DNA of 64,000 bases from Betaproteobacteria bacterium (GCA_013289985.1 JABCYW010000001.1:79772-143771); one strand, 5' to 3'. Numbered from the stretch's first letter, positions 10,104-60,255 are shown. The notes: generated by a model not told the origin, from the sequence alone. Numbers and translations are program-made.

Positions 10104-10116
10104 TGTGTCGGGTGAC

Positions 10117-12044: not shown

Positions 12045-12322
12045 GCCCTGCTCCTCTTCTTCTTTGCCGCGAAGTCTCCCACACCAGCGACTGCAGCGCA
12101 CGAAGCTCATTGCCTGCGCCGCCATCGTCCTGCTCTCTGCTCACGTCCAGGCATACGTTTTCATTTTGCTGCGAGCGGCAGACCTCATTCCGCGCTCATT
12201 GATACAGCCACCCCTATTTCGGGTGGTTGCGCGAAGCGCCCGGCATCGGCCCAATGATCGGTCGCGCGCCACTTCAGCATTGAATTGCGTAGCCCGTCCA
12301 CCTACACGGTACTGACCGCCAC

Positions 12323-12817
12323 ATGTCGAACGTTCTCAAGGACATCTACAAGTCCAAGGGTAAGCTGGAAAACTACTTTGACGACAAAACGCCAGTTGCT
12401 CTCTGGCGTGGTCAAAAGCGAGATCTGATCAAGAAAAAGCGGGGGGGCCTCTACCCTGAGCTTACCGGCTTCGTGCGTGGCGACGGAACGTTTCGCATTC
12501 CCGACGTCGATGTCTTCGAGCGCGAGAGCGACGGCGTCACGATGGTCCGCGGTTGTCGGTGTGTTGCAGGCGAAGGCGACTACCGCGGTGTGTCGACGTT
12601 CGACGTCATGCCTGATCTTGGCAAATCATTCATGTACTTCCGTATCCCGGGTGGCACGGCAATCCCGGAAGCGCTTGCGGTGACCAAGGACACGTTCAAC
12701 CGACGCTTCGGTGGTTACCATTACACCGTTGCGCCGAAAGACGACATGCCGTTGAGCCTCTTCCTTGTCTGGCTGGGTGCGATCGAGGCGAGCCTGAAGG
12801 CTGAAGGAGGCAAGTGA
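12323..12817 (+). CDS. Hypothetical 164-aa protein, candidate toxin/effector of a two-gene module
   Basis: An ORF in the lower-GC block with no confidently recognised domain. It contains FERES and GGYHYTVAPKDD motifs. Its stop overlaps the start of the following 87-aa ORF as ATGA. Confidence 0.5.
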   Translation: MSNVLKDIYKSKGKLENYFDDKTPVALWRGQKRDLIKKKRGGLYPELTGFVRGDGTFRIPDVDVFERESDGVTMVRGCRCVAGEGDYRGVSTFDVMPDLGKSFMYFRIPGGTAIPEALAVTKDTFNRRFGGYHYTVAPKDDMPLSLFLVWLGAIEASLKAEGGK

Positions 12818-13077
12818 TGACCGAACCGATCCGATTGACCGACCAGGCAGTGATCACCGCTGCCCGGGCCTTGATCATGGAAAACAAGCGCTGTGCGGCG
12901 AAGCTCAAGGACGACTCGCTTTCAGACGAACAGGCCGAGTATTTCGGTGACTACGTCCAGTTGTTGGACGCAGCGATGGGCGAGATCGAGGCGCTCTACG
13001 TCGAGCGTCAGGCGACGAATCGGCACATGGGGTCGTTCGACGCGCTCTACGAGTCGGTCTTGCTCGACAAGGACTGA
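12814..13077 (+). CDS. Hypothetical 87-aa acidic helical protein, candidate immunity/antitoxin partner
   Basis: It has a 4-nt overlap with the upstream ORF. It is small, acidic and predicted all-helical (DEQAEYFGDYVQLLDAAMGEIEALYVERQ), which is typical of cognate immunity proteins. Confidence 0.45.
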   Translation: MMTEPIRLTDQAVITAARALIMENKRCAAKLKDDSLSDEQAEYFGDYVQLLDAAMGEIEALYVERQATNRHMGSFDALYESVLLDKD

Positions 13078-13113
13078 TGCGGGTCAGCCTGTTTTTCCGC
13101 AAGCCCGATCCGA

Positions 13114-13150
13114 GCGCCCTGGGCTCGACGGAGGGCGCGGCGGGATATTT
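13114..13150 (+). terminator. Candidate intrinsic terminator after the two-gene module
   Basis: Inverted repeat GCGCCCT-(11 nt)-AGGGCGC at 13114-13138 is followed by the AT-rich stretch gggatatttcattta. Confidence 0.3.
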
Positions 13151-13280
13151 CATTTATCGTGTCACACCCGTCGGAACCTGTCAGTAATCGTGTCACTTCT
13201 CTTGGACAGGCGTGACACGGAAAGTGAAAAAGGCGAGCAAAATCAATGGTGTTCATTTCACTTTTCGTGTCACCCGACAT
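13147..13280. repeat. Array of four CGTGTCAC-core repeats (three direct, one inverted) with interleaved inverted repeats, in an AT-richer non-coding stretch
   Basis: tcgtgtcac at 13157-65, 13188-96 and 13265-73; gtgacacg at 13212-19. Repeats 1 and 3 share an extended TTCATTT..TCGTGTCACMCCCG context. Interleaved inverted pairs cctgtc/gacagg and cgtgtcac/gtgacacg follow an A-B-A'-B' arrangement. Confidence 0.5.
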
Positions 13281-13294
13281 GAGTTGTACGCCGC

Positions 13295-13367
13295 GTAGGG
13301 CGCCAGAGTAAATGCGACTCGCGCCACAGTTCTGCGACTGAACGGCGCTAGTTGGTGCGACTACCGG
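13295..13367. repeat. Right copy of the about 73-bp imperfect direct repeat (TGCGACT units)
   Basis: gtagggcgccagagtaaatgcgactcgcgccacagttctgcgactgaacggcgctagttggtgcgactaccgg. It aligns with 10117-10190 and ends 1 nt before the ATG at 13368. Confidence 0.45.
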
Positions 13368-13577
13368 ATGTCGCGAATCCTTCCCAGACACTGGCTCGCG
13401 CTGGCTCAAAAGTCTGGCGTCCCCGACTTGGCGCAGTCGATGGTTCTGCTCGCAAAGGGCGTCGAGACTGCGCTGGAAGTTGCGAAGGAGATGTTGCCCG
13501 AAGGCTTTCCGGATCTTCTCTGGCACTCCATCGCGACCGGCACAAGTCGCCAGGCAAAGACTTTCTTGGCCGCGTAG
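13368..13577 (+). CDS. Possible small helical protein of 69 aa, low confidence
   Basis: The ORF starts immediately after the right repeat block and has a helical composition. There is no domain support, and the competing ORF 13352-14263 in another frame looks spurious. Confidence 0.25.
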   Translation: MSRILPRHWLALAQKSGVPDLAQSMVLLAKGVETALEVAKEMLPEGFPDLLWHSIATGTSRQAKTFLAA

Positions 13578-13607
13578 CTGACGGCGGAGGAAGTCACCAA
13601 GCAGGAT

Positions 13608-14231
13608 TTGATATCCATGCCGTCCATTCTGACAATCATTCGCGCAAGCCTCTCGGCGTTGGCCCTCGCTGCCATCGGTGCGCAACTGGTGCTGCACGTT
13701 GGCGCGTCGCACAGCGTTCTGAACTTCTTCAGCTATTTCACGAATCTCTCCAACCTGGTCGCCGCGTCGGTCTTGCTCCTTTGCGCGTTCGACGTGGGGT
13801 CAAGCAGCAAGGGATCGATGACGCTGGCGCGATACGTGTCGGCTGTGAACATGGCCGTGGTTGGTCTCGTGTTTGCCGTGCTGCTCCGAAACACGGATTT
13901 CGGGACGCTTCTTCCATGGGTCAACTTCGTCCTCCACTACGTCATGCCCGTCGCTGTCGTCCTGGACTGGCTGGCCGATCCACCGGGGCTGAAGCTGCAC
14001 TCGAACAGCCACTTTCTTCCGCTCCTGTTCCCCGCGTTCTATCTCGTGTATGTCTTGCTGCGCGGCGCTTCGACAGGTTGGTATCCCTATCCGTTTCTGA
14101 ACCCGGCGAACGTTGGTGGCTACGGCGGGGTCGCCGCGTACTCTCTGGGCATCGCCGTCGCAGTCCTTCTGGCGAGTTGGTTGTTGCTCGCAGCTGGCAA
14201 CCGCCGCGCAAGCGCGAAATCGCGCGCCTGA
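13608..14231 (+). CDS. Pr6Pr-family (FAR-17a/AIG1-like) integral membrane protein
   Basis: A 207-aa product with multiple TM helices and conserved Trp/Pro residues (LHYVMPVAVVLDWLADPP, FLPLLFPAFYLVYVLLRG). Its GC content is still somewhat lower than the core genome. Confidence 0.6.
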   Translation: MISMPSILTIIRASLSALALAAIGAQLVLHVGASHSVLNFFSYFTNLSNLVAASVLLLCAFDVGSSSKGSMTLARYVSAVNMAVVGLVFAVLLRNTDFGTLLPWVNFVLHYVMPVAVVLDWLADPPGLKLHSNSHFLPLLFPAFYLVYVLLRGASTGWYPYPFLNPANVGGYGGVAAYSLGIAVAVLLASWLLLAAGNRRASAKSRA

Positions 14232-45614: not shown

Positions 45615-47505
45615 CCTTGGCGGCGAGCAACTGCCCCACTTCGTGATGCAAGCCCTCGGGCGTGACCGCGTCGGCCGCGATCTGCGGGCCCACGTTCAGG
45701 CCCACCTTGCTGAACAGCCCGCGGCGGAACGGCTTGCTCATGGCGGCGCCTTCCACGCGCGAGAAGAACGAGCCCCACAGGTTCTGCAGCGCGAGCGGGA
45801 TCACCGGCACCGGGCGCGTCTCGAGGATGCGCATCACGCCGCCCTTGAAGGGCTTCAGCGCGCCGTCGTTGGTGATGCCGCCCTCGGGGAAGATGCCCAG
45901 CAGGTCGCCCTCGGCCAGCACCTGGTCGGCCGCGACGAAGGCGGCCTCGTAGGCGGCCGGATCGTCGTTCCTGGACGCGATGGGAATCGCCTTGGCCAGG
46001 CGGAAGAACAGGCCCAGCCCCGGGGTGCGGAAGATGCGCGCGTCCATGAGGAAGCGGATCGGGCGCGGGCTGGCCGCCATCAGCAGCACCGGGTCGACGA
46101 AGCTCACGTGGTTGCACACGACGATGGCCGGCCCGGTGGCGGGGATATTGGCGTCGCCCTGGATCCGGAAGCGGTAGACGGTGCGCGTGAGGACGAAGGC
46201 GATGAAGCGCAGCAGGTACTCCGGCACCAGGCAGAAGATGTAGCCCGCCACGACGGCGTTGGCGATGCCGGTGATCAGGAACACGCCGCCGATGCTCACG
46301 CCGAAGTGCAGGAGCGCGCCGGCGATCAGCGAGCTGGCGATCATGAACAGCGCGTTCAGGATGTTGTTGGCAGCAATGATGCGGGCCCGGTGGCTAGCGA
46401 GCGCCCGCATCTGGACGAGCGCATACATCGGCACGCTGTAGAGGCCGGCGCTGAGCGAGAGCATGAACAGATCGATCATCGGCCGCACGTGCTGGCCCTG
46501 GTGGACGAAGTCGGACAGGCCCCACAGCGCGCTCGCCGGCGCCGCGAGATGGCTCACCGAGAAGTACAGGTCGATCGCGAAGATGCTCATGCCGATGGCG
46601 CCCAGCGGCACGAGGCCGATTTCCACCTGGCGGCGCGACAACACCTCGCACAGCAGCGAGCCGATGCCCACGCCCACCGAGAACAGCACCAGCAGCAGCG
46701 ACGCCACGTGCACGTCGCCGTGCAGCACGTCCTTGGCGAACGAAGGGAACTGCGACAGGAACGTCGCGCCGAAGAACCACATCCACGAGATGCCCAGCAG
46801 CGACCGGAACACGACGACGTCGGTGCGCGCCAGCTTCAGGTTGCGCAGCGTCTCGGTGACCGGATTCCAGTTGATCTTGAGCTGGTCGTCGTGCGGCGGC
46901 GACGCGGGAATGGCCTGGGCCGTCAGCCGGCCGATGACCGCGATCGCGAGACAGGTGCCGCCGGCGAGCGCCGGGCCCATGCCGGGCACCACGACGAGAA
47001 GGCCGCCGGCGAGCTGGCCCAGCAGGATCGCGACGAAGGTGCCCATCTCGACCATGCCGTTGCCGCCGGTGAGCTCGTGGTCGTCGAGGTGCTGCGGCAG
47101 GTAGGCGTACTTCACCGGGCCGAACAGCGTGGAGTGCACGCCCATCAGGAACAGGCACAGCAGCAGCACCACCACCTGCTGCGCGACGAAGCCCCAGGTG
47201 GCGAGCACCATGATCAGGATCTCGAACGACTTGATGAAGCGCATCACGCGCGCCTTGTCGTATTTGTCGGCCAGCTGCCCGCTGGTGGCCGACAGCAGCA
47301 CGAACGGCAGGATGAACACGGCGCTGATGACGAGGCCGGCCTTCTCGGGCGGCAGCCAGGACACGTTGAGCTGGTAGGTGACCAGCACCGTGAACGCGAA
47401 CTTCAGGACGTTGTCGTTGCCCGCGCCGAAGAACTGCGTCCAGAAGAACGGCGCGAAGCGGCGTTGCGAGAGAAGCGCGAACTGGCTGGGATGGGCTTGG
47501 CTCAT
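45607..47505 (-). CDS. fused lysophospholipid transporter (LplT-like MFS) and acyltransferase (Aas/PlsC-like)
   Basis: An N-terminal MFS domain (12 TM) is followed by a PlsC acyltransferase motif NHVSFVDPVLL. Starts at MSQAHPSQF; the ORF-track N-terminal extension was rejected. Confidence 0.75.
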   Translation of the reverse strand: MSQAHPSQFALLSQRRFAPFFWTQFFGAGNDNVLKFAFTVLVTYQLNVSWLPPEKAGLVISAVFILPFVLLSATSGQLADKYDKARVMRFIKSFEILIMVLATWGFVAQQVVVLLLCLFLMGVHSTLFGPVKYAYLPQHLDDHELTGGNGMVEMGTFVAILLGQLAGGLLVVVPGMGPALAGGTCLAIAVIGRLTAQAIPASPPHDDQLKINWNPVTETLRNLKLARTDVVVFRSLLGISWMWFFGATFLSQFPSFAKDVLHGDVHVASLLLVLFSVGVGIGSLLCEVLSRRQVEIGLVPLGAIGMSIFAIDLYFSVSHLAAPASALWGLSDFVHQGQHVRPMIDLFMLSLSAGLYSVPMYALVQMRALASHRARIIAANNILNALFMIASSLIAGALLHFGVSIGGVFLITGIANAVVAGYIFCLVPEYLLRFIAFVLTRTVYRFRIQGDANIPATGPAIVVCNHVSFVDPVLLMAASPRPIRFLMDARIFRTPGLGLFFRLAKAIPIASRNDDPAAYEAAFVAADQVLAEGDLLGIFPEGGITNDGALKPFKGGVMRILETRPVPVIPLALQNLWGSFFSRVEGAAMSKPFRRGLFSKVGLNVGPQIAADAVTPEGLHHEVGQLLAAKVI

Positions 47506-49764: not shown

Positions 49765-50550
49765 TCAGCGAGCGGCCAGCGCCGGGCTCATTTCGCGCTC
49801 GACCATCTCGCGCGCGAACTCGATGAAGGCGATGGCGCCACGTGAAGTCGGATCCCAGACGACGCCCGGCTGGCCGTAGCTGGGGGCCTCGGCGAGGCGA
49901 ACGTTGCGTGGGATCACGGTGTTGAACACCTTGTCGCCGAAGTGCGCCTTGAGCTGGTCGCTGACGTTCACCTGCAGCGTGATGCGCGGATCGAACATCA
50001 CCCGCAGGAGGCCGATCAGCTCCAGGTCGCGGTTGAGGTTGGCGTGAACCTGCTTGATCGTGTTGACTAGGTCGGACACCCCTTCCAGCGCGAAGTACTC
50101 GCACTGCATCGGCACGATGACGCCGTGGGCGCTGCACAGGCCGTTGAGGGTGAGCAGGTTCAGCGAGGGCGGGCAGTCGATCAGGACGAAGTCGTAGTCG
50201 TCGGCCACGGCCTTGAGTGCCTGCCGAAGTCGTTCGTTGCGACGCTCCAGGGCTACCAGCTCGACCTCGGCGCCCGCCAGTTCGCGGTTGGCGCCCAGCA
50301 CGTCGTAGCCACCGCTGGTGGAGCGTTGCGCGGCTTCCTGGATCGTCGCGCTTTCCAGCAGGACGTCGTAGACGGTGAGGGGCAGGTCGCGCTTCTGGAT
50401 GCCGGAACCCATCGTGGCATTGCCTTGCGGGTCGAGATCGACCAGGAGGACGCGCTGACCGACGAGCGCCAGGCCGGCCGCCAGATTCACCGTGGTGGTG
50501 GTCTTGCCGACGCCGCCCTTCTGATTCGCAATGCAGAAAATTCTCGCCAT
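49765..50550 (-). CDS. parA: chromosome partitioning ATPase ParA/Soj
   Basis: MARIFCIANQKGGVGKTTTTVNLAAGLA, a deviant Walker A. It is downstream of rsmG as in the conserved mnmG-rsmG-parA arrangement. Confidence 0.9.
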   Translation of the reverse strand: MARIFCIANQKGGVGKTTTTVNLAAGLALVGQRVLLVDLDPQGNATMGSGIQKRDLPLTVYDVLLESATIQEAAQRSTSGGYDVLGANRELAGAEVELVALERRNERLRQALKAVADDYDFVLIDCPPSLNLLTLNGLCSAHGVIVPMQCEYFALEGVSDLVNTIKQVHANLNRDLELIGLLRVMFDPRITLQVNVSDQLKAHFGDKVFNTVIPRNVRLAEAPSYGQPGVVWDPTSRGAIAFIEFAREMVEREMSPALAAR

Positions 50551-50583
50551 GGATGACCGGTGAAAGCGCTGTGGTGCCTGCGG

Positions 50584-51300
50584 CTATTGTCGGGGCTGTT
50601 GCGCCGAGTCGTCAGTGCATTCCTGGGGCCGGAGCCACACGAGGCAGCGTTTTTCGTTCAATTCCGGCACCTCGAGTTGTTCCACGTGAAACATTTCGAC
50701 GTTGGCGGGGATCTCGGCCTGCTCTTGGACGGACAGGTTTGCCTTCATGGCGGCCCATTGGCCACCGACCGCAAGCAGCGGCCGAGTCAGCGTCGTGAAG
50801 TCCAGGATCGAGGCGAAGGCGCGCGAGGTGACCAGGTCGAACTCGGGTGTCTTGAAGGTGCCGGCGGCTTCGACGCGGCCATGGACGCCGTGCAGGTTCG
50901 TCAGTCCCAGCTCGACGGCGACCTGGCGGATGAAGGCCGCCTTCTTGGCGACCGCGTCGACGCAAGTGACCTGCCATGCCGGGTTGAGCATCGCGAGAAT
51001 GACGCCGGGCAGGCCGGCGCCACTGCCGACATCCAGCACCCGGAGACTCCCCTGCCCTGCGGTGCCGGTTCCGGTTCGCAAGGGCAGGACGACCGCGAGG
51101 CAGTCGAGCAGGTGGTGGGTGAACATCTCGCCGGTATTGCGGACGGCGGTCAGGTTGTAGACCTTGGTCCAGCGCTGGATCAGCGCGATGTAGGCCAGCA
51201 GTCGCTCGCGTTCCGTCGCCGTCAGCGCCAGTCCCAATCGGGGGGCAAGGTCCTCGAGTCGACCGTCCAGGCGGGACGGGTCACCGTATTCAGGCGGCAT
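50584..51300 (-). CDS. rsmG: 16S rRNA (guanine527-N7)-methyltransferase RsmG (GidB)
   Basis: SAM motif [12 protein letters not shown] and a conserved RsmG fold. Its start overlaps the mnmG stop. Confidence 0.9.
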
Positions 51301-53317
51301 GTTCGGCAGGAGAAGAATTGGGATTCGAGAAGCCCTTGAAGCGCTTCTTCTTGAGATGGACGAGCAGGAGCGAGATCGCGGCGGGCGTGACGCCGGAGAT
51401 CCGGGTGGCTTGGCCCAGCGTCTGCGGACGATGCTGGGTCAGCTTCTGGCGCACCTCGAAGGACAGCGCGGTGACCTGGTTGTAGTCCAGCTCGGCGGGC
51501 AGCGCGAGTTCTTCCAGGCCCTGGGCGCGGTTGACTTCCTCGTTCTGCTTGTCGATGTAGCCGGCGTACTTGGTGGCGATCTCGAGTTGCTCGATGACCT
51601 CGCCGGCCAGTTGGGCGCCGAGTTCCTGGCTCAGTGTTTCACGTGAAACATCGACGGCAGGCCGGGCGATGGCGGTTGCCTCGACGACGGTATCGAAGTC
51701 GATGCCGGGCCGGCGCAACAGGTCCGTCAACGAATGCTCGTGTTCAAGCGCCTTGCCGAGCAGGCGCTCCGCGTCGGCCGCGGGCAGGTTGTTGGGATGC
51801 ACCCAGGTCGAACGCAGCCGCTCGGTCTCGCGCGCGAGCACGTCGCGCTTGCGGTTGAAGTGCGTCCAGCGGGCGTCGTCGACCAGCCCCAGCTGGCGGC
51901 CCCGCTCCGTGAGCCGCAGGTCGGCGTTGTCTTCACGCAGCTGGAGGCGGAACTCGGCACGACTCGTGAACATGCGGTAGGGTTCGGTGACGCCCTTGGT
52001 GATCAGGTCGTCCACCAGCACACCCAGGTACGCCTGGTCGCGCCGGAGCACGAGGCCGTCAGCGCGGCCCGCCGCAAGCAGCGATGCGTTGGCGCCGGCG
52101 AACAGGCCCTGCGCCGCCGCTTCTTCATAGCCGGTGGTGCCGTTGATCTGGCCGGCGAAGAACAGGCCGGAGATGGCGCGCGTCTCGAATGTGCTCTTCA
52201 GTTCGCGCGGGTCGAAGTAGTCGTATTCGATCGCGTAACCCGGCCGCAGGATGTGGGCATTGGCCAGGCCGGCCATCGACCGGACGGCGGCCAGCTGGAT
52301 GTCGAAGGGCAGCGAGGTGGAGATGCCGTTCGGGTAGAACTCGTTCGTCGTGAGGCCTTCGGGCTCCAGGAAGATCTGGTGCGAATCCTTGTCGGCGAAG
52401 CGATTGACCTTGTCCTCGATGCTGGGGCAATAGCGCGGCCCCACGCCCTCGATGACGCCGGTGAACATCGGGCTGCGGTCGAAGCCGGAGCGGATGATCT
52501 CGTGCGTGCTGGCATTGGTGTTGGTGATCCAGCACGGCATCTGGCGCGGATGCTGCGCCGCGTTTCCCATGAAGCTGAACACCGGCATCGCCGTCGTGAT
52601 GCGGCCGTCGACGTCGGGCATGCCGTCGCCTGGCTGCTCCACCAGCTGCGAGAAGTCGATGGAGCGGCCGTCGATGCGCGGCGGCGTGCCCGTCTTGAGC
52701 CGGCGTTGCGGCAGCTTCAGTTCCTTCAGCCGCGCGGACAGGCGCTGTGCCGGGGGATCCCCTGCCCGCCCGGCGCTGTAGTTCTGCAGCCCCATGTGGA
52801 TCTTGCCGTCGAGGAACGTGCCGGCCGTCAGTACCACGGTGCGCCCGCGGAACGTGATGCCCGATTGCGTGACCGCGCCGGTCACCCGATCGGCGCCGTC
52901 CACCGACTCCACCACCAGGTCGTCGACCGCCTGCTGGAACAGCCACAGGTTGGGCTGGTTCTCCAGGCGATGGCGGATGGCCGCCTTGTAGAGGATGCGA
53001 TCGGCCTGGGCCCGCGTCGCGCGAACGGCCGGCCCCTTCGAGCCGTTGAGGATGCGGAACTGGATGCCCGACTCGTCCGTCGCGGCCGCCATCGCACCGC
53101 CCAGCGCATCGACCTCCTTGACCAGGTGACCCTTGCCGATGCCGCCGATCGACGGATTGCAGCTCATCTGCCCCAGCGTCTCGATGTTGTGCGTCAACAG
53201 CAGCGTCGCACTGCCCATGCGGGCCGCGGCGAGCGCGGCCTCGGTGCCGGCATGGCCGCCGCCGACCACGATGACGTCGAATTCCTGGGGGTAGATCACC
53301 GGCAACTCACTGCGCAT
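51290..53317 (-). CDS. mnmG: tRNA uridine 5-carboxymethylaminomethyl modification enzyme MnmG (GidA)
   Basis: [23 protein letters not shown]-binding N-terminus. The protein is long and conserved. The ORF-track start at 53389 was trimmed to the Met before YPQEF. Confidence 0.9.
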
Positions 53318-53468
53318 GATCCGAGCCATCACGGCCGGATCGAAGGGGTAGCCCGCGCTGCGACGCGCCGCGCGATCGACCAGGATCACGCCACGCGGAG
53401 ACGGGTGGGGGAAACCGGGATTTTAGGCGGCCTCGCGCGCGCGCGCCACCAGCGAGGACAATCCGCGC

Positions 53469-53765: not shown

Positions 53766-53831
53766 AACGACAAATGCCGCGGGAGTGCAAGCACTCGCTC
53801 CGCGGCATCGGCAGTATTTTCGAGACCCACC

Positions 53832-53860
53832 GAAAAAGAACGGGGTGCCGACGGAGGCCG
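53832..53860. terminator. perfect 13-bp inverted repeat GGGGTGCCGACGG-agg-CCGTCGGCACCCC, a possible bidirectional terminator
   Basis: Seen directly in the sequence between the Cys-cluster gene and the low-GC block. There is no strong T-tract. Confidence 0.35.
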
Positions 53861-54384
53861 TCGGCACCCCAAGAGTCAATCAGCTTCAGTAAGCGCTTCC
53901 ATCGCGTGAGCGATTTTCCCGGAACTGGATGGGCTGATTGTGGAGGGTCTTGGGTGAACGATGGCTTTGGCCATCGTTTCAAATTAATCTTTCAAAGCGA
54001 GTGAATCTTCAAGCGGTCGAGGTACCTGAAGTTCACCAACCACCGCGCGGAGTTCCGTTCGTTGTCGAAGCATCACCACCGACAACAAATTTAAATTTAT
54101 CGAAGCACAGCTCAACCATTGGCACGAATTCGGAGTGCGTGTCGTCTGCACTCCGCGTCTTAGGGAGCGACAACACCTTCAACGCCGATACGATCTTCAG
54201 AATGGAATTCATGTCTATCTACCTGCTAAATGCTGTTGTTCGCCCCTGTAGAAGCATTGAAACAGCTAGCAGTCCGATCGGACACTGTCAGGTCTTACAG
54301 GGTCGCAGCCACGCATGGGGCCTTGACCGGTAGGCCGAGGCACGGCCTGAAGGCCCGCAGATTGGGCACCAACCCGAAGGATTT

Positions 54385-55119
54385 CTAGTTCAGCAGCCCG
54401 AGACGGATGGCCTTCAGCACCGCTTGGTGCTTGTTCACGCAAGCGAGCTTGTGCATGGAATTTTGCAGGTGCAAGACTGCCGTACGCTCGGAAATGCTCA
54501 TGATGGTGCCGACTTCCCAGGCGGTCTTCCCTTCCATCGTCCAACGCAGGGCTTCGAGTTCGCGTGGAGTGAGCGTTGGCGCGTCCAATCGCTTGGGCGG
54601 GTTCGGCGTGAAGAGCCTAAAGGCGGCGTCCTGTGCATGGACGGCAAACAGCTGCAGGTCAGCCACGATGCGCGTGACGTTGCGCATGTTCTTGGGAAGG
54701 GGCCTGTCCCGATCCACGCCTATGAAGAAGTGGCGTCCACCCGGCAAGTGCATGGCCATCGCTATTCCTGTGCCGTAGCCGTGCTGGGACTGAAATTCCC
54801 ATAGATTTCCCAGACCTCGCGAAACGTAAGTCTCCTGATCCCAAATGATCGGCACTGCCGACTTCTTGCAGTGCTGCATGACCGGATCATGCTGCGCGCC
54901 AAAGTCGAGATCGGAATACCACTCCATGTACTCAGCAGGAGTGTTGTTCACAGTCTGGAACTCAGTGTTCGAGGCCGAATGATCGGTGACTACTGCAGCC
55001 GTTACGAACTTGAAGTCGAGGTGCTCCGCGAAGCTGACTACCTGCGCGGAAAAATCCTCGATGGTCGTGGTCTCCAAGATCGAGAGGTGGCTCCCCTGAA
55101 GCATGCGCGCTGCCATCAC
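54385..55119 (-). CDS. LuxR-family autoinducer-binding transcriptional regulator, solo 1
   Basis: The autoinducer-binding domain has the conserved W..Y..DP..W..G pattern (EWYSDLDFGAQHDPV, PIIWDQ, GYGTGIA). The C-terminal LuxR HTH reads LTPRELEALRWTMEGKTAWEVGTIMSISERTAVLHLQNSMHKL. Confidence 0.8.
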   Translation of the reverse strand: MMAARMLQGSHLSILETTTIEDFSAQVVSFAEHLDFKFVTAAVVTDHSASNTEFQTVNNTPAEYMEWYSDLDFGAQHDPVMQHCKKSAVPIIWDQETYVSRGLGNLWEFQSQHGYGTGIAMAMHLPGGRHFFIGVDRDRPLPKNMRNVTRIVADLQLFAVHAQDAAFRLFTPNPPKRLDAPTLTPRELEALRWTMEGKTAWEVGTIMSISERTAVLHLQNSMHKLACVNKHQAVLKAIRLGLLN

Positions 55120-55244
55120 TGACCTCGGTTCACGTCATGCGTGCAAGTGCTTCGCGTCCGGCAAGTCCATGACCGCGAAGCGCGGGCGCGACAAATTGGG
55201 CCTTCCCAGAAGGACAAGCGGGTGTGGGGGGAGACATGGTGCAC

Positions 55245-55265
55245 CCTGACAAGTTTGACAGCTAG
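55245..55265. promoter_or_regulatory. lux-box-like imperfect palindrome CTG-N10-CAG
   Basis: ccCTGacaagtttgaCAGctag lies about 130 bp upstream of solo 1. Related copies sit at 55578-55597 and 54285-54300 (CTGtcaggtcttaCAG). Confidence 0.3.
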
Positions 55266-55756
55266 TCCAAGCAACGCAATATCTCCAGACTCCGGGGCAT
55301 GCTGACAAGGACATCAACCACAGCCATGCTTGCTGCCCCAATCTTGCCATCGCCGTTGGCGCCCTATTCTTGGCCACCCGTATTTTGGCAGGCAAACCTT
55401 CGACGAACGCCCAAATTTGTACACCTCTCCACTCATGTGACGCGTGCCGGCGGGCAAAAGCAACCATGCTGCGGCAGTACGCTCTGGGGCGGCTTCTCGG
55501 CCGATGGCGATGCCGGCTTGGCTTGGGACTGGGTTGAAATCGAGCAAGGAGTTGTAGCCATGCGCGACCCTATGTCCCTGATGACAAATTTACAGCTAGT
55601 TGCAGAAAACGGTGAGGTGCTCCAGCCGATCGCTGCAGCGTTGCACTTCAATCAGTTCGTACGCCGGCTGCCTTGGCAAGATGAAGTTCGCAGGTTGCTC
55701 CACGCTGCTTAGTACCAAGAGATCAGTTTTTCAATGCGCTAAACCGCGAATCGCGG

Positions 55757-56494
55757 CTAATCGCAGCGGACTAAGCCTAGTCGTATTGCCCGCAAAACTG
55801 CTTCATATTTTGTCCCGCAGGCAAGCTTTCTCATAGCGGATTGCAACCGTTCAGATGCGACTTCTTCCGTTGTCGACATCAGCTCTGCCACGCTTTTCGT
55901 TATCTTGCCGTCCATTGTCCATCGAAGTGCGTCAATTTCTCGGGACGTAAGGGCAGATCCTTCATCCGATGAGGTGACCGGCGGCAGGCATAGATCAAAA
56001 GCTGCTGCCTGGGAGTACGCAGCAAAAGACCGAAAGTCGTCTAGTGCTCGGTGGTTGTAGGTACTTCGCGAGTTATGCGCCTTGCTGCCGCTTAGACCAA
56101 TCATGTAGTGCCGGCCCTTGCGATAATGCATCGCAGTTGCGATGCCTGTTTTGTAGCCATGTGCAGCTTGATAGTCCCAAAGGTCTCTTACTCCAGCGGC
56201 TGAATAGGTATCGACATTCCAAACGATTGGCGACGACCGATTTTTGCAATGCTGACTCACCGGATCTAATTTACCTTTCTCTAAATTGTGAAAATCGTCA
56301 AGAAATTCTTGAGGTGCGTTCGTTATGGTCTGAAATTCTGTGAACGTCTCTGAGTGATCTGTAACTACCAACGCAGCAGCGAACTCATAGCCGAGATGAT
56401 TGGCGAAGCTGACTAGCTGCGCGAGAAATGCCGCCTCGGACTTGCTCTCCAGAACGTCAAGACATCTGTTTTTCATAGCGAGTTCCATATGCAT
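55757..56494 (-). CDS. LuxR-family autoinducer-binding transcriptional regulator, solo 2, paralogous to solo 1
   Basis: The two align along their whole length (LAQLVSFANHLGYEF / AQVVSFAEHLDFKF; ...DPVSQHCKNRSSPIVW...; C-terminal HTH LTSREIDALRWTMDGK). Confidence 0.8.
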   Translation of the reverse strand: MHMELAMKNRCLDVLESKSEAAFLAQLVSFANHLGYEFAAALVVTDHSETFTEFQTITNAPQEFLDDFHNLEKGKLDPVSQHCKNRSSPIVWNVDTYSAAGVRDLWDYQAAHGYKTGIATAMHYRKGRHYMIGLSGSKAHNSRSTYNHRALDDFRSFAAYSQAAAFDLCLPPVTSSDEGSALTSREIDALRWTMDGKITKSVAELMSTTEEVASERLQSAMRKLACGTKYEAVLRAIRLGLVRCD

Positions 56495-56759
56495 CGGCCC
56501 TTCTCAGATGTGAGGGTGCAAGTTAGCGACCTCGAACGGAAGACGGAGGTGAAATTGCACTTCGGCGACTGTTCCCCTGTGCTTCTCCCGCGATTCGCGC
56601 TCAACACGCAGTGGCGGGTACCTGCGAAGCTGCGTTGAATCGGCAGTGCTCGACCAGAGTAGCTCAAGAAGAACACTAACATCCTCCGCGCCGCCACTGC
56701 ATCGCCAGGTTAGGGTATCGAAGCCCCTGGCTCCCTTGGCGAATGCGACGCTCTCGGTC

Positions 56760-57932
56760 CTACTGCGCCGCCCGCCTCGTCAACTGCCGACTCACGAACA
56801 TCAACGCCGCCACCGTCAGCACGGCGCAGATCAGCAGCCCGGGGGCGACATCGAGTGCGCTGATGGGGGCGTTCTTCAGGACGCGGTTCATCAGGGTGGA
56901 CTGTGCCAGCGCGGGCACCCACAGGTTCCAGGCGGACTCGCCTTCCTGGTTGAACAGGCTCACCATGGGCGTCAAGGCGACGGCGAGCACGAGCACGACG
57001 GTGTTGGCCTGCGCTTCCTTGTGGGTCTTGCAGCGGATGGCGATGGCCATCATCAGGGCGGACAGGGCCGCGGCGAGCGGGGCGAGCAGGCCGATGAACC
57101 AGGCGGCCTCGACCCAGCCGAATCGGAACAGCGCGGCGAGCGACTCGCTGCGCAGCAGGCTCTGCGCGGGCAGGAAGCTCATGCACGACAGCACTGCGAT
57201 CAGCAGGCCCAGCGCGAACACCGCGCCCCACTTGCCCACCACCAGGGCCATGCGCGCGGCGGGCGTGGCGAGCAGCGGCTCCAGCGATCCGCGTTCGCGC
57301 TCGCCGGCGGTGGTGTCGAGGGCGGCGTTGAGGGCGCCGTACAGGACGGCCATCATCACGAACATGGGCACCATGCTGGTGAGCTGGGCGGCGCGCGAGG
57401 CGTTGTCGGCGATGTCGTGCTCGTCGACGCTGGACACGTTCATCACACCGGGTGCGACGCCGCGGGCGATCAGGCGCAGCGAGGCCTGTTCCTGCCCGAA
57501 GCCCTGCAGCAGCCGCTCGATCGCGCCGACACCGGCCTGCGCGCGGCCGTTGGCGCTGCTGTAGACCAGCTGGATCCGCGGCGCCTGGCCGTGGGCGAGG
57601 TCGTCCTCGAAATTCGCGGGCACGATCACGACCGGATCGCCCAGCTTGCTGTCCTTGAGCTGGCTCTCCCAGTCGGCGGGGGCCGTCCTGACGATGAAGG
57701 TCTGGCGCTCGAGGTAGTTGCGCAGCGTGGGCGCGGCGTCCAGGCCGATCGCGACGATCTCGCGCGCCTCGGCACGCTTCTCGTACTTGCCCATCAGCGA
57801 CGACAGCAGCACGAGCATCAGCGGCCCGATGGCGATCGAGGTGAAGAACACCACCATCAAGGTGCGACGGTCGCGCAGCGCGTCCTTGAGCTCCTTGACG
57901 AACACCGTCCACATCGCGGCTGGATTGCTCAT
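56760..57932 (-). CDS. ABC-2 type transporter permease
   Basis: A 390-aa product with an N-terminal TM, a large extracytoplasmic loop and 5 C-terminal TM segments. Its start overlaps the ATPase stop as ATGA. Confidence 0.8.
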   Translation of the reverse strand: MSNPAAMWTVFVKELKDALRDRRTLMVVFFTSIAIGPLMLVLLSSLMGKYEKRAEAREIVAIGLDAAPTLRNYLERQTFIVRTAPADWESQLKDSKLGDPVVIVPANFEDDLAHGQAPRIQLVYSSANGRAQAGVGAIERLLQGFGQEQASLRLIARGVAPGVMNVSSVDEHDIADNASRAAQLTSMVPMFVMMAVLYGALNAALDTTAGERERGSLEPLLATPAARMALVVGKWGAVFALGLLIAVLSCMSFLPAQSLLRSESLAALFRFGWVEAAWFIGLLAPLAAALSALMMAIAIRCKTHKEAQANTVVLVLAVALTPMVSLFNQEGESAWNLWVPALAQSTLMNRVLKNAPISALDVAPGLLICAVLTVAALMFVSRQLTRRAAQ

Positions 57933-58687
57933 GAGGCAAGCTCCGTTCCGAACGCGAGGCGCACGAAGGCGTCCTCGAAATCGTCGCAGCCGGCCTGCTC
58001 GCACAGGCTGGCCACGGTGCCGTCGGCGACGTGGCGGCCGTGCGCCACCACCACCACGCGGTCGCACAGCCGCTCCACCTCCTGCATGATGTGCGTGGAG
58101 AAGACGATGCACTTGCCCGTCTCGTCGCGCAGCACGCGCAGGGCCTCGCGCAGCGCGCGCGTGGCCACCACGTCGAGTCCGTTGGTGGGCTCGTCCAGCA
58201 CGATGTTGGCGGGGTCGTGCACGAGCGCGCGCGCGAGCGCCGTCTTCATGCGTTCGCCCTGGCTGAAGCCGTCGGTGCGGCGGTCGAGCAGCGCCTCCAT
58301 CTCCAGCAGCCTGGCCAGGTGTTCGCAGCGCGCCTGCGCCACGTCGTCGGCCACGCCGTGCAGGCGGCCGTGGTAGACGATGTTCTCGCGGGCGGTCAGG
58401 CGCGGATACAGGCCGCGCGCATCGGACAGTACCCCCAGGCGCCCGCGCACGGCGGGCGCGTTCTCTCGCATGTCGATGCCATCGACCGTGATCGTCCCGC
58501 TGTCGGGAGTGACGAGGCCCACGAGCATGCGCAGGCTGGTGGTCTTGCCGGCCCCGTTGGGGCCCAGCAGCCCGGTGATGGCGCCGTCCTGCGCGTGCAA
58601 GGTCATGCCGTCGACGGCGACCACCGTGCGGGCCTTGTGGCCGCGGCCGCTCGTGAACTGCTTGCGCAGGTCGTCCATCGCGATCAT
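57929..58687 (-). CDS. ABC transporter ATP-binding protein
   Basis: Walker A GPNGAGKTT, signature FSQGERMKTAL, and Walker B IVLDEPTNGLD. Confidence 0.85.
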   Translation of the reverse strand: MIAMDDLRKQFTSGRGHKARTVVAVDGMTLHAQDGAITGLLGPNGAGKTTSLRMLVGLVTPDSGTITVDGIDMRENAPAVRGRLGVLSDARGLYPRLTARENIVYHGRLHGVADDVAQARCEHLARLLEMEALLDRRTDGFSQGERMKTALARALVHDPANIVLDEPTNGLDVVATRALREALRVLRDETGKCIVFSTHIMQEVERLCDRVVVVAHGRHVADGTVASLCEQAGCDDFEDAFVRLAFGTELAS

Positions 58688-60255
58688 CGCGGATCCTTGG
58701 TGGCAGCCGGCGCGGCGGCGTCGGGCGCGCGCGGCGACGGGTCGTCGAAACGATTCGGGTCGTTGGTGGCGGGCACGGCACGCGCGGGCAGCGGGGGCTG
58801 GAACGCGAGGGGACGCGGCACCTTGGCGGCGCAGTTCATGTCCACTGCCTGCGCCGCGGCGTCGGTGGCGGCATCCATGAAATGGAACACGGCGTCGCGC
58901 ATGCAGGCGATGGCGGTGACGTTGTGGCCGTTGTTGGCGACGACCACCGAGCGGGCGTTCGCGCCGAGCGCCTTGGCCACGCGCTCGGCGTGGCGCGGCG
59001 GCGTCACCGGGTCGAGGCCGCCGGACATCAGCAGCACCGCCGAGGCGCTGGCCGGGATCGTGTAGAACGCGGCCGGCACGTCGCCGCGCGGCCAGTGCGC
59101 GCACACGGCGCGGTACAGGCCGGGCGCGCCCGGCTCCTCGCCCGCTCCGGCGACCGGTGGCAGGCGCGGCACATCTTCCGCGCAGATGACGGAGAAGTGC
59201 TGGCCTTCCGACAGGTCGGTGGGCAGGCCTCCGGTGGACGTCGACAGCGCCAGCAGCGGGCCGAAGCGCCCCGCCGCTGCCTCGTCGATGGCGTGCGGCA
59301 GCATCGCGCCGAGCGCCGGCGCGTACAGCGGCGAACGAACGAGGCCGCGCGCGGCCTCCGCCGTCATCGTCACGTGCAGCGGCTTGCCGGTGATGGGGCC
59401 GGCCAGGTCGACGGGACGCGGCAACGACGCCAGCAACGCCTGCCAATGCTCGGCCAGCGCCGGGTGGGCGGCCGCGCAGGCCTTCTCGGCGGCGCAGTCG
59501 CGGAACAGCGCCTGCAGGGCCGCCTGCGCGTCGATGTCGTCGCTGACGGGCAGCACCATGTCGGGCGGCGCCACGCCGTCGATCACGCTGCGGCGCACAT
59601 GCCGCGGATACGCCCTCAGGTATTCCAGCGCCGCGCGCGTGCCGTAGCTGATGCCGATGAGGTCGACCTTGTCGGCGCCGAGCGCGACACGCACCGCGTC
59701 GGCGTCTGCCATCGCGATGGTGGTGGTGTAGAAGCGCAGGTCGCCCCAGGGCAGCTGCTGCAGTTTCATGCGGCAGGCGTCGAGCGCGGCGACCGCCCGC
59801 GCGCGATCGAGCGCGCGCGCGAGTGCCTCCTCGGGCTCCGGCACGTCGCATTGCAGCGGCGCGCTGTGGCCGGTGCCGCGCTGGTCGATCAGCACCAGGT
59901 CGCGCCGCGCGCCCAGGCGCGACGTGAGGTGCTCGATGGTGCCGGCCAGGCCGATGGCGCTCTGGCCGGGGCCGCCGGCGAAGAAGAAGATCGGATCGGG
60001 GAGCTTCTGGCGCGCCAGCGCGGGGATCACGACCACGTGCAGGTCGATCTGCGTGCCTTGCGGCTTCGCCGGATCGAGCGGACGCTTGAGGACGCCGCAT
60101 TGCGCGTCGTGCTCCAGGCCCACCAGGCGGCAGCTGTGCAAGGCCAGCGGAGCGGACGCCGTCGCGGCTGGATCGGGCGCGGCCAAGGCCAGGCCGCCTG
60201 CGGCGGACAGCGCGAGAGCGAGGGTGCGCGCCAGCCGCGCCGCGGCCCGCCTCAC
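58684..60255 (-). CDS. secreted alpha/beta hydrolase (proline iminopeptidase/TAP-like S33 family)
   Basis: Signal peptide (GTG start) VRRAAARLARTLALALSAAGGLALAAP. Nucleophile elbow GISYGT. The ORF-track N-terminal extension to 60708 was rejected because it overlaps the Grx-like gene in another frame. Confidence 0.7.
   Translation of the reverse strand: MRRAAARLARTLALALSAAGGLALAAPDPAATASAPLALHSCRLVGLEHDAQCGVLKRPLDPAKPQGTQIDLHVVVIPALARQKLPDPIFFFAGGPGQSAIGLAGTIEHLTSRLGARRDLVLIDQRGTGHSAPLQCDVPEPEEALARALDRARAVAALDACRMKLQQLPWGDLRFYTTTIAMADADAVRVALGADKVDLIGISYGTRAALEYLRAYPRHVRRSVIDGVAPPDMVLPVSDDIDAQAALQALFRDCAAEKACAAAHPALAEHWQALLASLPRPVDLAGPITGKPLHVTMTAEAARGLVRSPLYAPALGAMLPHAIDEAAAGRFGPLLALSTSTGGLPTDLSEGQHFSVICAEDVPRLPPVAGAGEEPGAPGLYRAVCAHWPRGDVPAAFYTIPASASAVLLMSGGLDPVTPPRHAERVAKALGANARSVVVANNGHNVTAIACMRDAVFHFMDAATDAAAQAVDMNCAAKVPRPLAFQPPLPARAVPATNDPNRFDDPSPRAPDAAAPAATKDPR

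What the first reader, a model, noticed from the sequence alone, without database searches (positions are those of the whole stretch)
53770..56760. AT-richer island with two tandem LuxR-type autoinducer-receptor paralogs (no synthase) and lux-box-like palindromes
Just past the Cys-cluster gene the GC content drops visibly (runs like aaatttaaatttatcgaag). The island holds two co-oriented LuxR-family genes, 244 aa and 245 aa, separated by 636 bp. Each carries the autoinducer-binding-domain residues conserved in TraR/LuxR (W, Y, D-P, W, G) and a C-terminal LuxR HTH. No luxI/hdtS-type synthase is present in the window. The imperfect palindrome CTGACAAGTTTGACAG (CTG-N10-CAG, about 55247-55263) lies about 130 bp upstream of receptor 1. 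Related copies sharing ACAGCTAG lie at 55578-55597 and 54252-54300. The intergenic regions are unusually long (615, 636 and 265 bp) and have no convincing ORFs. This looks like a horizontally acquired pair of LuxR solos, possibly eavesdropping receptors with their own operator sites.
Basis: partly seen in the sequence, partly recalled or inferred. Interest (0 to 1): 0.55.

Follow-up and report, generated by a model that had tools for sequence, protein, structure and literature searches.

The report
LuxR–RsaM module driving a secreted-type peptide
The two LuxR-type receptor genes are real, but they are not a foreign island with empty spacers: the spacers hide a conserved RsaM-like regulator gene and a small peptide gene that sits behind a lux-type operator where an AHL synthase gene would normally be, which suggests a peptide-linked quorum-sensing-like circuit in a Gram-negative lineage.

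Summary
Two co-oriented LuxR-type genes lie on the minus strand: A (54385-55116) and B (55757-56494), 45% identical, in a low-GC stretch. The interpretation needs major revision.

1. A is a single-copy gene in a conserved position (ABC-2 permease | A | CxxCxxCC-gidA) in about 80 Rubrivivax/Ideonella/Roseateles-group genomes. B is a fast-evolving paralogue found only in the nearest subclade. This is not a recent island.
2. The AHL pocket is not canonical: TraR Y53 is T in A and A in B, and W57 is Y in A and F in B. These changes hold across the family.
3. The "empty" spacers hold genes. M (55299-55712, +) is an RsaM-family protein present in 90/90 loci. P (54212-54033, -) is a 59-aa double-glycine-leader peptide ending in PRGGW, found in 83/90 loci.
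4. The palindrome is real (box 1, 55246-55261; 34.6 bits against a null maximum of 13.4). A second cep-box-like site (box 2, 54285-54300) lies 72 nt upstream of P, as the cep box does at cepI.
5. In about 62/87 relatives P is followed by HlyD and a C39-peptidase ABC exporter.

No luxI occurs in the window or in any locus. Best reading: a LuxR-solo/RsaM circuit that activates a peptide gene occupying the luxI position. The peptide may be the receptor's own signal.

The parts
55757..56494 (-). Receptor B: LuxR-type paralogue (245 aa), fast-evolving and low in GC (0.50; GC3 0.50). Its HTH recognition helix is divergent and acidic.
   Evidence: Pfam Autoind_bind E=1.3e-17; GerE 24.8 bits, just above the cutoff. 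45% identical to A. dN/dS 0.16 against L001. Orthologues occur only in the nearest subclade and form a monophyletic long-branched clade. Conserved HTH motif MSTTEEVAxERL. No box upstream.
55299..55712 (+).
   Evidence: tblastn finds it in 90/90 loci at 41-98% identity. dN/dS 0.032. 25/30 family members hit DUF4902, and no other family is hit. The only PDB profile hit is 4o2h. AF2 pLDDT 82.8. Foldseek top hit is the 4o2h RsaM homologue, E=8e-4, prob 1.0, TM 0.61, with the next hits at TM 0.25.
55246..55261 (-). Box 1: lux/cep-type operator CTGTCAAACTTGTCAG in the 182-bp divergent M-A promoter region. It lies 37 nt from M's ATG and 129 nt from A's ATG.
   Evidence: Conserved upstream of A in about 80/90 loci. 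A PWM trained without the window scores it 34.6 bits against a null maximum of 13.4 in 50 shuffles. 14/16 identical to the phuR cep box (PMC1766932). The 36-37 nt spacing to M's start is the modal value.
54385..55116 (-). Receptor A: conserved LuxR-type regulator (243 aa) with a non-canonical ligand pocket and a near-invariant HTH.
   Evidence: Pfam Autoind_bind 2.8e-21, GerE 6.5e-14. 3489 homologues. Syntenic and single-copy in about 80 genomes. dN/dS 0.028. Pocket table.
54285..54300 (-). Box 2: cep-box-like operator CTGTAAGACCTGACAG, 72 nt upstream of P's ATG.
   Evidence: 17.6 bits with the box-1 PWM, above the null maximum of 13.4. Present downstream of A in 84/90 loci with a loose pattern. 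The common form CTGTAAGAGTTGACAG matches the cepI cep box at 14/16; the cepI box is 72 bp from its ORF. The box-to-ATG distance has mode 77. The A-P spacer is 95.9% identical to L001 although dS is about 0.3.
54256..54264 (-). Extended -10-like element TGTTTCAAT of the P promoter. It places the centre of box 2 near -44.
   Evidence: TGnT[TCG][CG]AAT is conserved about 19 nt after box 2 across loci. Its function as a promoter element is inferred.
54033..54212 (-). P: 59-aa precursor peptide with a double-glycine leader (L-12, F-7, V-4, GG) and the core DASTTNGTPRGGW.
   Evidence: A homologous small ORF is found downstream of box 2 in 83/90 loci. It has a GG-type leader and 1-3 copies of [LAGS]P-x-x-x-W, usually at the C-terminus. 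In Roseateles the leader and motif are invariant while the spacer between motifs is hypervariable. Gene callers predicted it in L001-L003 and L089. It matches no curated family.
53841..53871 (-). Intrinsic terminator (14-bp stem with 11 GC pairs, then TTCTTTTT) that closes the A-P transcription direction before the convergent CxxCxxCC gene.
   Evidence: inverted repeat I5.

Best explanation
The locus is a vertically inherited LuxR-solo/RsaM regulatory module, not an imported island.

Receptor A is a LuxR-type activator whose pocket has lost two of the three AHL hydrogen-bonding residues. I propose that it binds two cep/lux-type boxes. Box 1 lies in the divergent promoter it shares with the RsaM-like gene M, so it would provide autoregulation and control of the modulator. 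Box 2 is centred near -44 of the promoter of P. P is a small gene encoding a double-glycine-leader peptide whose core ends in P-(K/R)-G-(G/T)-W. P occupies the position that luxI holds in canonical luxR-rsaM-luxI circuits.

In most relatives P is co-transcribed with an HlyD-type adaptor and a C39-peptidase ABC exporter, which would cleave after GG and secrete the short Trp-terminated peptide. In the window's subclade the exporter is not at this locus, and a second, rapidly diverging receptor paralogue (B) has been added. By analogy with RsaM, M would damp the circuit.

Shown here: the gene content, its conservation, the box sequences and their geometry, the fold of M, the pocket substitutions, and purifying selection on A, B, M and P. 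Inferred: that A binds the boxes, that P is activated by A, that the peptide is exported, and the roles of M and B.
For: - Synteny and single-copy status of A in about 80 genomes.
- M is present in 90/90 loci and belongs to the RsaM family by Pfam on family members, by PDB profile search and by fold.
- The divergent rsaM-luxR-solo arrangement is already catalogued as 'type 6a' in Pelomonas, Kinneretia and others (PMC10710839).
- Box 1 scores 34.6 bits against a null maximum of 13.4 and is conserved.
- Box 2 is in 84/90 loci, followed by a conserved extended -10 and a spacing of about 72-77 nt to P, the same as the 72 bp at cepI.
- P is in 83/90 loci with a canonical GG leader.
- HlyD plus Peptidase_C39-ABC follow P in about 62/87 loci.
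- A's HTH is almost invariant, which fits conserved operators.
- dN/dS: A 0.03, M 0.03, B 0.16, P 0.3.
- Only these two boxes score in the whole 64 kb window.
- No luxI in the window or in any of 87 loci.
Against: - There is no experimental evidence for binding, transcription or peptide production.
- In the window itself the exporter is absent from the locus and from the 64 kb, so export of P here is unproven.
- Box 1 lies only 37 nt from M's annotated ATG. That fits activation only if M's mRNA is nearly leaderless or its true start is downstream; the box could instead be a repressor site.
- The window's own M falls below Pfam's DUF4902 gathering score (14.4 against 25 bits).
- A whole-genome search for luxI was not possible.
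Confidence: 0.75

Rival explanations
1. Peptide quorum sensing through a LuxR-type receptor. The exported and processed P peptide (for example LPRGGW or ...TPRGGW) is re-imported and is the cognate ligand of A's remodelled pocket. P then plays the role of luxI in a positive-feedback loop, RsaM-like M acts as the brake, and B is a second receptor tuned to a variant peptide.
For: - P sits behind a cep-type box with the same geometry as cepI.
- The AHL-contact residues Y53 and W57 are replaced family-wide, while D70, W85 and a family-specific His stay invariant and other pocket-lining positions are highly variable.
- Peptide-motif distance correlates with pocket distance after controlling for the rest of the protein (partial r=0.25, p=0.0005). 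The value exceeds all 300 random LBD column sets. Pocket columns are enriched among co-varying columns (p=0.016).
- The motif units are invariant while the spacers between them are hypervariable.
- Short peptides without a GG leader and ending in the same kind of motif occur in three loci that lack the exporter (L037, L044, L070), which is compatible with a cytoplasmic target.
Against: - No importer has been identified, and a hydrophilic peptide would need uptake across two membranes.
- Some HTH and N-terminal columns also co-vary with the motif, so phylogenetic confounding is not excluded.
- The list of LasR contact residues was taken from memory.
- The co-folding test could not be run.
- No LuxR-family receptor is known to bind a ribosomal peptide.
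Confidence: 0.4
2. P is only an output: a small secreted bacteriocin- or microcin-like peptide, or an effector peptide. A controls its production in response to some other cue (an unknown small molecule, foreign AHLs, or no ligand at all).
For: - GG-leader peptides with PCAT/HlyD exporters are the classic export route for class II microcins and bacteriocins, and for RaxX (established knowledge).
- LuxR-type regulators often control antimicrobial production.
- The faint leader-region hits include class IIb bacteriocins.
Against: - The cores are very short (6-30 aa). They carry a conserved pentapeptide motif rather than a toxin-like domain.
- No immunity gene is evident next to P.
- The pocket co-varies with the peptide motif.
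- P keeps the luxI-like position and feedback geometry.
Confidence: 0.3
3. One reading: a horizontally acquired pair of AHL-eavesdropping LuxR solos, each with its own operator sites.
For: - Low GC.
- No luxI in the window.
- A real lux-type box upstream of A.
Against: - The position is syntenic across about 80 genomes, and A's relationships agree with GidA similarity.
- No tRNA genes and no notable flanking repeats.
- B-type copies are anciently diverged yet all low in GC.
- W57 and Y53 are replaced in both proteins.
- B has no box upstream.
- The module also contains the M and P genes.
Confidence: 0.07

Closest known systems
rsaM-luxR solo 'type 6a' topology (Pelomonas, Kinneretia, Thauera, Albitalea, Xenophilus), catalogued in the RsaM review PMC10710839
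   Same: An rsaM-family gene lies next to and divergent from a luxR gene with no luxI. The betaproteobacterial lineage is the same (Pelomonas/Roseateles, Kinneretia)..
   Different: The review describes only the two-gene topology. It does not mention the conserved GG-leader peptide gene, box 2 or the PCAT/HlyD exporter found here. Most M proteins fall below Pfam's DUF4902 threshold, so the arrangement is far more widespread than catalogued: all 90 loci examined here.
CepI/CepR/RsaM (BCAM1869) AHL circuit of Burkholderia cenocepacia, with its cep box
   Same: A LuxR-type activator plus an RsaM-fold modulator (4o2h is the only structural match). The operators are almost the same sequence (14/16). 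The box is 72 bp from the ORF of the feedback gene.
   Different: The gene behind the box is a ribosomal peptide precursor, not the AHL synthase cepI. The receptor lacks the W57 and Y53 equivalents.
Non-AHL LuxR solos: PluR/PauR of Photorhabdus (pyrones, dialkylresorcinols) and the plant-associated OryR/XccR/PipR group (W57M, Y61W; PMC10134790)
   Same: LuxR-type receptors with no LuxI and with substitutions in the conserved pocket residues. PipR-type solos are genetically linked to peptide transport and peptidase genes.
   Different: The substitutions differ (W57 to Y/F, Y53 to T/A/C/M). There is no adjacent proline iminopeptidase. RsaM and a GG-leader peptide are present instead. The residue details for PluR and PauR are recalled from memory.
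Gram-positive peptide pheromone systems exported by C39 ABC transporters (ComC/ComAB; EntF-type induction factors), and RaxX/RaxAB of Xanthomonas
   Same: A double-glycine leader with the canonical -12/-7/-4/GG pattern. A PCAT is paired with an HlyD-type adaptor in relatives. The mature peptide is short.
   Different: The regulator is a cytoplasmic LuxR-type protein, not a two-component sensor or a plant receptor. No modifying enzyme lies in the locus. The hits to ComC, EntF and class IIb models are below threshold.

Membership tests
LuxR-type quorum-sensing receptor (Autoind_bind + GerE) | N-terminal autoinducer-binding domain (PF03472) followed by a C-terminal LuxR/GerE HTH (PF00196) | tested here: met
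   Both A and B exceed the Pfam gathering scores, although B's GerE is marginal at 24.8 against 23.5 bits. The best PDB matches are QscR, LasR, RhlR, CviR, SdiA and TraR.
LuxR-type quorum-sensing receptor (AHL-binding subgroup) | Six conserved ligand-domain residues: W57, Y61, D70, P71, W85, G113 (TraR numbering; PMC10134790) | tested here: not met
   W57 is Y in A and F in B. Among 83 distinct A orthologues it is Y in 62, F in 16 and W in 3. Y61 is Y in A and F in B. D70, P71 and W85 are invariant across the family, and the G113-equivalent Gly of the GYxTG motif is also kept. The AHL-contact residue Y53 is never Y.
LuxR-type quorum-sensing receptor | Conserved HTH residues E178, L182, G188 | tested here: met
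   A has E186, L190 and G196, all invariant in the alignment. B has the equivalent ..REIDALRWTMDGK...
LuxR solo | No cognate luxI adjacent to the gene or elsewhere in the genome | tested here: inconclusive
   No LuxI-family gene in the 64 kb window or within 6-10 kb of the gene in 87 related loci. The rest of the genome could not be searched. [quoted passage not shown]
RsaM / DUF4902 (PF16245) | Sequence match to PF16245 at the gathering score | tested here: not met
   The window's M scores 14.4 bits against a cutoff of 25 (E=0.037). However, 25/30 family members hit DUF4902 at E<=0.1 (best 5.4e-5) and no other family is hit.
RsaM / DUF4902 (PF16245) | The distinctive RsaM fold (anti-parallel beta sheet wrapping two C-terminal helices) with a conserved tryptophan quartet | tested here: met
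   The AF2 model (pLDDT 82.8) has beta strands followed by two helices. In Foldseek the only significant hit is 4o2h (E=8e-4, TM 0.61). W63, W76, W78 and W126 are invariant and align to GYTEW / WDW / LDW of 4o2h.
RsaM / DUF4902 (PF16245) | Always encoded next to luxI and/or luxR | tested here: met
   M is divergent from A in 90/90 loci. This corresponds to topology type 6a of PMC10710839.
Double-glycine-leader peptide / PCAT substrate | Leader with hydrophobic residues at -4, -7 and -12 and G-G at -2/-1 | tested here: met
   The window's P has L-12, F-7, V-4 and GG. The family consensus is (V)ELDxxxLxxVxGG. Curated HMMs give only sub-threshold leader hits.
Double-glycine-leader peptide / PCAT substrate | Cognate C39-peptidase ABC transporter, plus an HlyD adaptor in Gram-negatives, encoded nearby | tested here: not met
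   Absent from the window. Present immediately downstream of P in about 62/87 related loci. In L030, Peptidase_C39 has E=8e-36 and HlyD_3 has E=4e-15.
lux/cep-box operator | A dyad of about 16-20 bp with a CTG-N10-CAG core, centred near -42.5 of an activator-dependent promoter | tested here: met
   The sequences of box 1 and box 2 match at 14/16 to published cep boxes. A conserved extended -10 places box 2 near -44. No consensus sigma-70 promoter is found in the region. Protein binding was not testable.
Plant-associated-bacteria (PAB) LuxR solos | W57M and Y61W substitutions, with an adjacent proline iminopeptidase gene | tested here: not met
   The residues are Y/F and Y/F. The neighbours are an ABC-2 transporter, RsaM, the peptide gene and CxxCxxCC.
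Horizontally acquired genomic island | Atypical composition, together with absence from related genomes or a break in synteny, together with mobility hallmarks (tRNA, integrase, flanking repeats) | tested here: not met
   Only the composition is atypical. The locus is syntenic in about 80 genomes. There are no tRNA genes and no notable flanking repeats.

The most novel reading that the evidence does not exclude
A ribosomally made, PCAT-exported, Trp-terminated short peptide has replaced the AHL synthase in a LuxR/RsaM quorum-sensing circuit, and it is sensed by the remodelled autoinducer-binding domain of the LuxR-type receptor. This would be a peptide-based LuxR quorum-sensing system in Gram-negative Burkholderiales. 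Lineage-specific 'pherotypes' would co-vary with the receptor pocket. In the window's subclade, an extra receptor paralogue (B) would be diversifying towards another specificity or acting as a dominant-negative partner.
Probability: 0.4. Interest if true: 0.92.

Novelty: new variant of a known kind. Interest (0 to 1): 0.74.

Why it matters
LuxR solos are abundant, and for most of them the ligand is unknown. RsaM's mechanism is also an open question. Here a whole clade of environmental Burkholderiales (Rubrivivax, Ideonella, Roseateles, Piscinibacter, Leptothrix relatives) carries a LuxR-solo/RsaM pair wired, through a cep-type box with cepI-like geometry, to a double-glycine-leader peptide and its exporter.

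This gives a concrete and cheaply testable candidate ligand or output for one family of LuxR solos: synthetic hexa- to tridecapeptides such as LPRGGW or DASTTNGTPRGGW. It also gives a luxI-free setting in which to study RsaM.

If the peptide is the signal, this would be the first LuxR-type receptor known to sense a ribosomal peptide, and a rare case of peptide quorum sensing in Gram-negative bacteria.

There is a practical lesson too. "Long empty spacers" beside regulators deserve six-frame comparative checks.

Tried and rejected
1. Recent horizontal acquisition. Rejected on synteny, on the agreement of A's relationships with GidA similarity, on the absence of tRNA genes and notable flanking repeats, and on the persistence of low GC in anciently diverged B copies.
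2. Canonical AHL receptor. Rejected on the pocket residues.
3. PAB-type solo. Rejected on residues and neighbours.
4. B as a pseudogene. Rejected: the frame is intact in relatives, dN/dS is 0.16, and its distinctive HTH is conserved.
5. Rejected: it lies in M's coding sequence, has CTG-N12-CAG spacing and scores below 8 bits.
6. sRNA in the spacers. Rfam at gathering thresholds finds nothing in the module; the only hit in the window is Bcj11 at 46.7 kb.
7. LuxI or HdtS in the window. None found.
8. HlyD or a PCAT elsewhere in the window. None found; there is only generic ATPase-domain similarity to the ABC-2 system's ATPase.
9. Co-folding of A with the peptide core through a linker.
10. An exact lookup of A's 244-aa GTG-start version found nothing, because homologues start one codon later.
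11. My CTGT-N10-CAG pattern search was mistyped. It shows only that such generic patterns occur at the chance rate.

Full report
THE OBSERVATION

The window contains two co-oriented LuxR-type genes, both on the minus strand. Receptor A is 54385..55119 as listed (244 aa from GTG). Homologues are 241-243 aa, so the true start is probably the ATG at 55116. Receptor B is 55757..56494 (245 aa). Both have an Autoind_bind domain followed by a GerE HTH, though B's GerE score is only just above threshold. They are 45% identical. GC falls from about 0.70 to 0.49-0.60 across about 53.8-56.7 kb. A has GC 0.58 (GC3 0.74) and B has GC 0.50 (GC3 0.50), against GidA at GC3 0.89. The flanking genes are a CxxCxxCC protein, gidA and gidB on one side, and an ABC-2 permease with its ATPase on the other.

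NOT A RECENT ISLAND

A has thousands of homologues, almost all from metagenomes of Burkholderiales. Genomic contexts and a scan of reference genomes show that A is a single-copy gene in a conserved position. The order is: glutaredoxin, alpha/beta-hydrolase, ABC ATPase, ABC-2 permease, then about 600 nt, then A, then CxxCxxCC, gidA, gidB, parA. This holds in about 80 genomes of the Rubrivivax, Ideonella, Roseateles/Mitsuaria, Piscinibacter, Leptothrix, Caldimonas and Methylibium group. The loci most similar in A are also the most similar in GidA.

There are no tRNA genes nearby and no notable flanking repeats. A's orthologues elsewhere are only mildly below their neighbours in GC (0.64 against 0.70).

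B-type copies occur only in the subclade nearest the window (L001-L011). They form one long-branched clade beside the A clade. They are all low in GC (0.50-0.60) even though they are only about 45% identical to one another. So the low GC is old and maintained, not a recent import that has yet to ameliorate.

Both genes are under purifying selection against the closest relative. dN/dS is 0.028 for A, 0.159 for B and 0.049 for GidA. B was simply not called by the gene finder in the close relatives, where it is intact.

THE POCKET IS NOT CANONICAL

I aligned the proteins to LasR, QscR and TraR and built a family-wide table from 83 distinct A orthologues.
- TraR-W57 is Y in 62, F in 16 and W in only 3. 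In the window it is Y in A and F in B.
- Y53, which contacts the AHL, is never Y (T, A, C or M). In the window it is T in A and A in B.
- Y61 is F, Y, M or another residue. In the window it is Y in A and F in B.
- D70, P71 and W85 are invariant, and the G113-equivalent Gly of the GYxTG motif is also kept. A family-specific His is invariant at the position of LasR L125.
- The HTH signature residues are present.

HIDDEN GENE 1: AN RsaM-FAMILY PROTEIN IN THE A-B SPACER

While footprinting the region upstream of A, I found a conserved ..CCAGTCCCAG.. element. It is the reverse complement of the codons for W-D-W. The corresponding plus-strand ORF, 55299..55712 (137 aa, called M here), is divergent from A. 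It is detectable in 90/90 loci at 41-98% identity and has dN/dS of 0.032.

Its best Pfam match is DUF4902, below threshold for the window's own protein. However, 25 of 30 family members hit DUF4902, and no other family is hit. The family profile's only PDB hit is 4o2h. An AlphaFold model (pLDDT 82.8) has 4o2h, the Burkholderia cenocepacia RsaM homologue, as its only significant structural match (E=8e-4, TM 0.61, with the next hits at TM about 0.25). The RsaM tryptophan quartet is conserved.

The 2023 RsaM review lists this divergent rsaM-luxR-solo arrangement as 'type 6a' in Pelomonas, Kinneretia and a few other genera. So the M-A pair is a known topology, although it has not been studied functionally.

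OPERATORS

Its consensus is AGCTGT(A/C)A-N4-YTGTCAGG. A PWM built without the window's own sequence scores it 34.6 bits, against a maximum of 13.4 in 50 shuffled windows. It lies in the 182-bp divergent M-A region. Its distance to M's ATG is a modal 36-37 nt, while its distance to A's ATG varies.

The same PWM finds only one other site in the 64 kb: box 2, CTGTAAGACCTGACAG at 54300-54285, just downstream of A. Box 2 is present in 84/90 loci. In its common form, CTGTAAGAGTTGACAG, it matches the experimentally defined cepI cep box (CTGTAAGAGTTACCAG) at 14/16 positions. Box 1 matches the phuR cep box at 14/16 (PMC1766932).

One copy flanks box 1. One overlaps the -10 region of the P promoter. The third lies inside M's coding sequence and is not a box.

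HIDDEN GENE 2: A DOUBLE-GLYCINE-LEADER PEPTIDE BEHIND BOX 2

Downstream of box 2, 83/90 loci encode a small protein of about 45-80 aa. It has a conserved amphipathic N-terminus and a canonical GG leader (L-12, E-8, L-7, V-4, G-G). The short core carries one to three copies of (L/A/G/S)-P-x-x-x-W, usually at the very C-terminus. Examples are LPRGGW, APKGTW...APKGTW and GPNGGW...GPNGGW.

The window's copy, called P here, is 54212..54033 (minus strand): MNSILKIVSALKVLSLPKTRSADDTHSEFVPMVELCFDKFKFVVGG|DASTTNGTPRGGW.

The distance from box 2 to the ATG is about 72-81 nt (72 in the window), the same as the 72 bp at cepI. A conserved extended -10-like element, TGnT(T/C/G)(C/G)AAT, follows the box and places its centre near -44. 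The non-coding A-P spacer is 96% identical to the nearest relative even though dS is about 0.3. A strong intrinsic terminator follows P. No curated family recognises the peptides. The only faint, sub-threshold hits are to the GG leaders of ComC, EntF-type induction factors and class IIb bacteriocins.

EXPORTER

In about 62 of 87 related loci, P is followed directly by an HlyD-family adaptor and an ABC transporter with an N-terminal C39 peptidase domain. This is the standard machinery that cleaves after GG and secretes such peptides.

The window's subclade and a few other lineages lack these genes at the locus, and none is present in the 64 kb. Three exporter-less loci (L037, L044, L070) instead encode short peptides with no GG leader that end in the same kind of motif (...TLLPRNGW).

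No LuxI-like gene was found in the window or in any locus.

MECHANISM

Best supported (confidence about 0.75): A is a LuxR-type activator that has lost canonical AHL recognition. It acts on two cep-type boxes, controlling the RsaM-like modulator M (and probably itself) and activating P. P has taken the genomic and regulatory place of luxI. Where the exporter is present, the peptide is processed and secreted.

The steps that are shown are the gene content, its conservation, the box geometry, the fold of M and the selection on each gene. Binding, activation and export are inferred.

THE MOST NOVEL READING

The most novel reading (probability about 0.4) is that the peptide is A's own signal. Several results point that way:
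- the luxI-like feedback position of P;
- a remodelled but strongly conserved pocket scaffold with variable lining residues;
- a partial Mantel correlation between peptide motif and pocket residues, controlling for the rest of the protein (r=0.25, p=0.0005), which exceeds all 300 random column sets;
- enrichment of pocket columns among the columns that co-vary with the peptide (p=0.016).

This evidence is suggestive only.

The main alternative is that P is merely an output, such as a small bacteriocin-like or effector peptide.

B'S ROLE

B's role is unresolved. It is functional but fast-evolving. It has no box upstream. Its recognition helix is conserved but clearly different and more acidic. 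This is compatible with a second specificity or with a heterodimerising modulator.

NOVELTY

The LuxR-solo/RsaM pairing is known as a bioinformatic category. In four full-text searches (and 46 together with the two reviews) I found no description of the coupling to a conserved GG-leader, Trp-terminated peptide behind a cep-type box with a PCAT exporter. I therefore rate the locus as a new variant of a known kind. It could be categorically new if the peptide proves to be the ligand.

Noticed in passing
window 10100-14000: A second low-GC island (GC about 0.58 against about 0.68). Its ORFs have mostly no Pfam match. One, at 12323-12817 (+), matches the Tse2 ADP-ribosyltransferase toxin family (E=6.5e-11). 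This may be a toxin/immunity or T6SS-effector islet next to the origin-region genes.
   Followed up: partly
window 46723-46844 (-): A full-length match to the Rfam family Bcj11 (Burkholderia sRNA 11): 108 bits against a gathering score of 49. It is the only Rfam hit in the window.
   Followed up: no
window 3388-4092 and 49765-53389: The window appears to span the chromosomal origin neighbourhood. It has rnpA (Ribonuclease_P domain) near 3.4-4.1 kb, and parA-gidB-gidA at 49.8-53.4 kb. The LuxR/RsaM/peptide module therefore sits next to the highly conserved gidA-gidB-parA block in this whole clade.
   Followed up: partly
L032, L049, L056, L074, L083 (about 60-90 nt upstream of A): Some genomes carry two adjacent copies of box 1 exactly 18 bp apart. 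This gives four YTGTMA hexamers at 9-bp spacing, so the operator can also be read as a direct-repeat array.
   Followed up: no
L037, L044, L070 (downstream of A): In these loci, which lack the HlyD/C39-ABC exporter, the peptide gene is reduced to a short ORF with no GG leader that ends in the same kind of motif (for example MQTTIQAIAQAQIVTLLPRNGW). Loss of the leader thus goes together with loss of the exporter.
   Followed up: partly
L079:9117-10661; L072:8293-9382; L006:7955-9397; L011:3859-5354: The number of LuxR-type genes in the module varies between genomes. Two extra copies lie downstream of the exporter in L079. L072 has fragments. L006 and L011 have three tandem copies. L004 retains only a 97-aa HTH-only remnant of the B-type copy.
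   Followed up: partly
window 55745-55756: A perfect 12-nt palindrome, CGCGAATCGCGG, lies in the 44-nt gap between the convergent stop codons of B and M. A second copy is at 56588-56599, upstream of B. It could be a bidirectional terminator stem or a binding site.
   Followed up: no
window 56760-58781 (-): The 673-aa ORF listed mechanically here is an artefact of high GC. The real genes are the ABC-2 permease (56760-57935) and, in another frame, the ABC ATPase (57932-58693), as in the related annotated contigs.
   Followed up: yes
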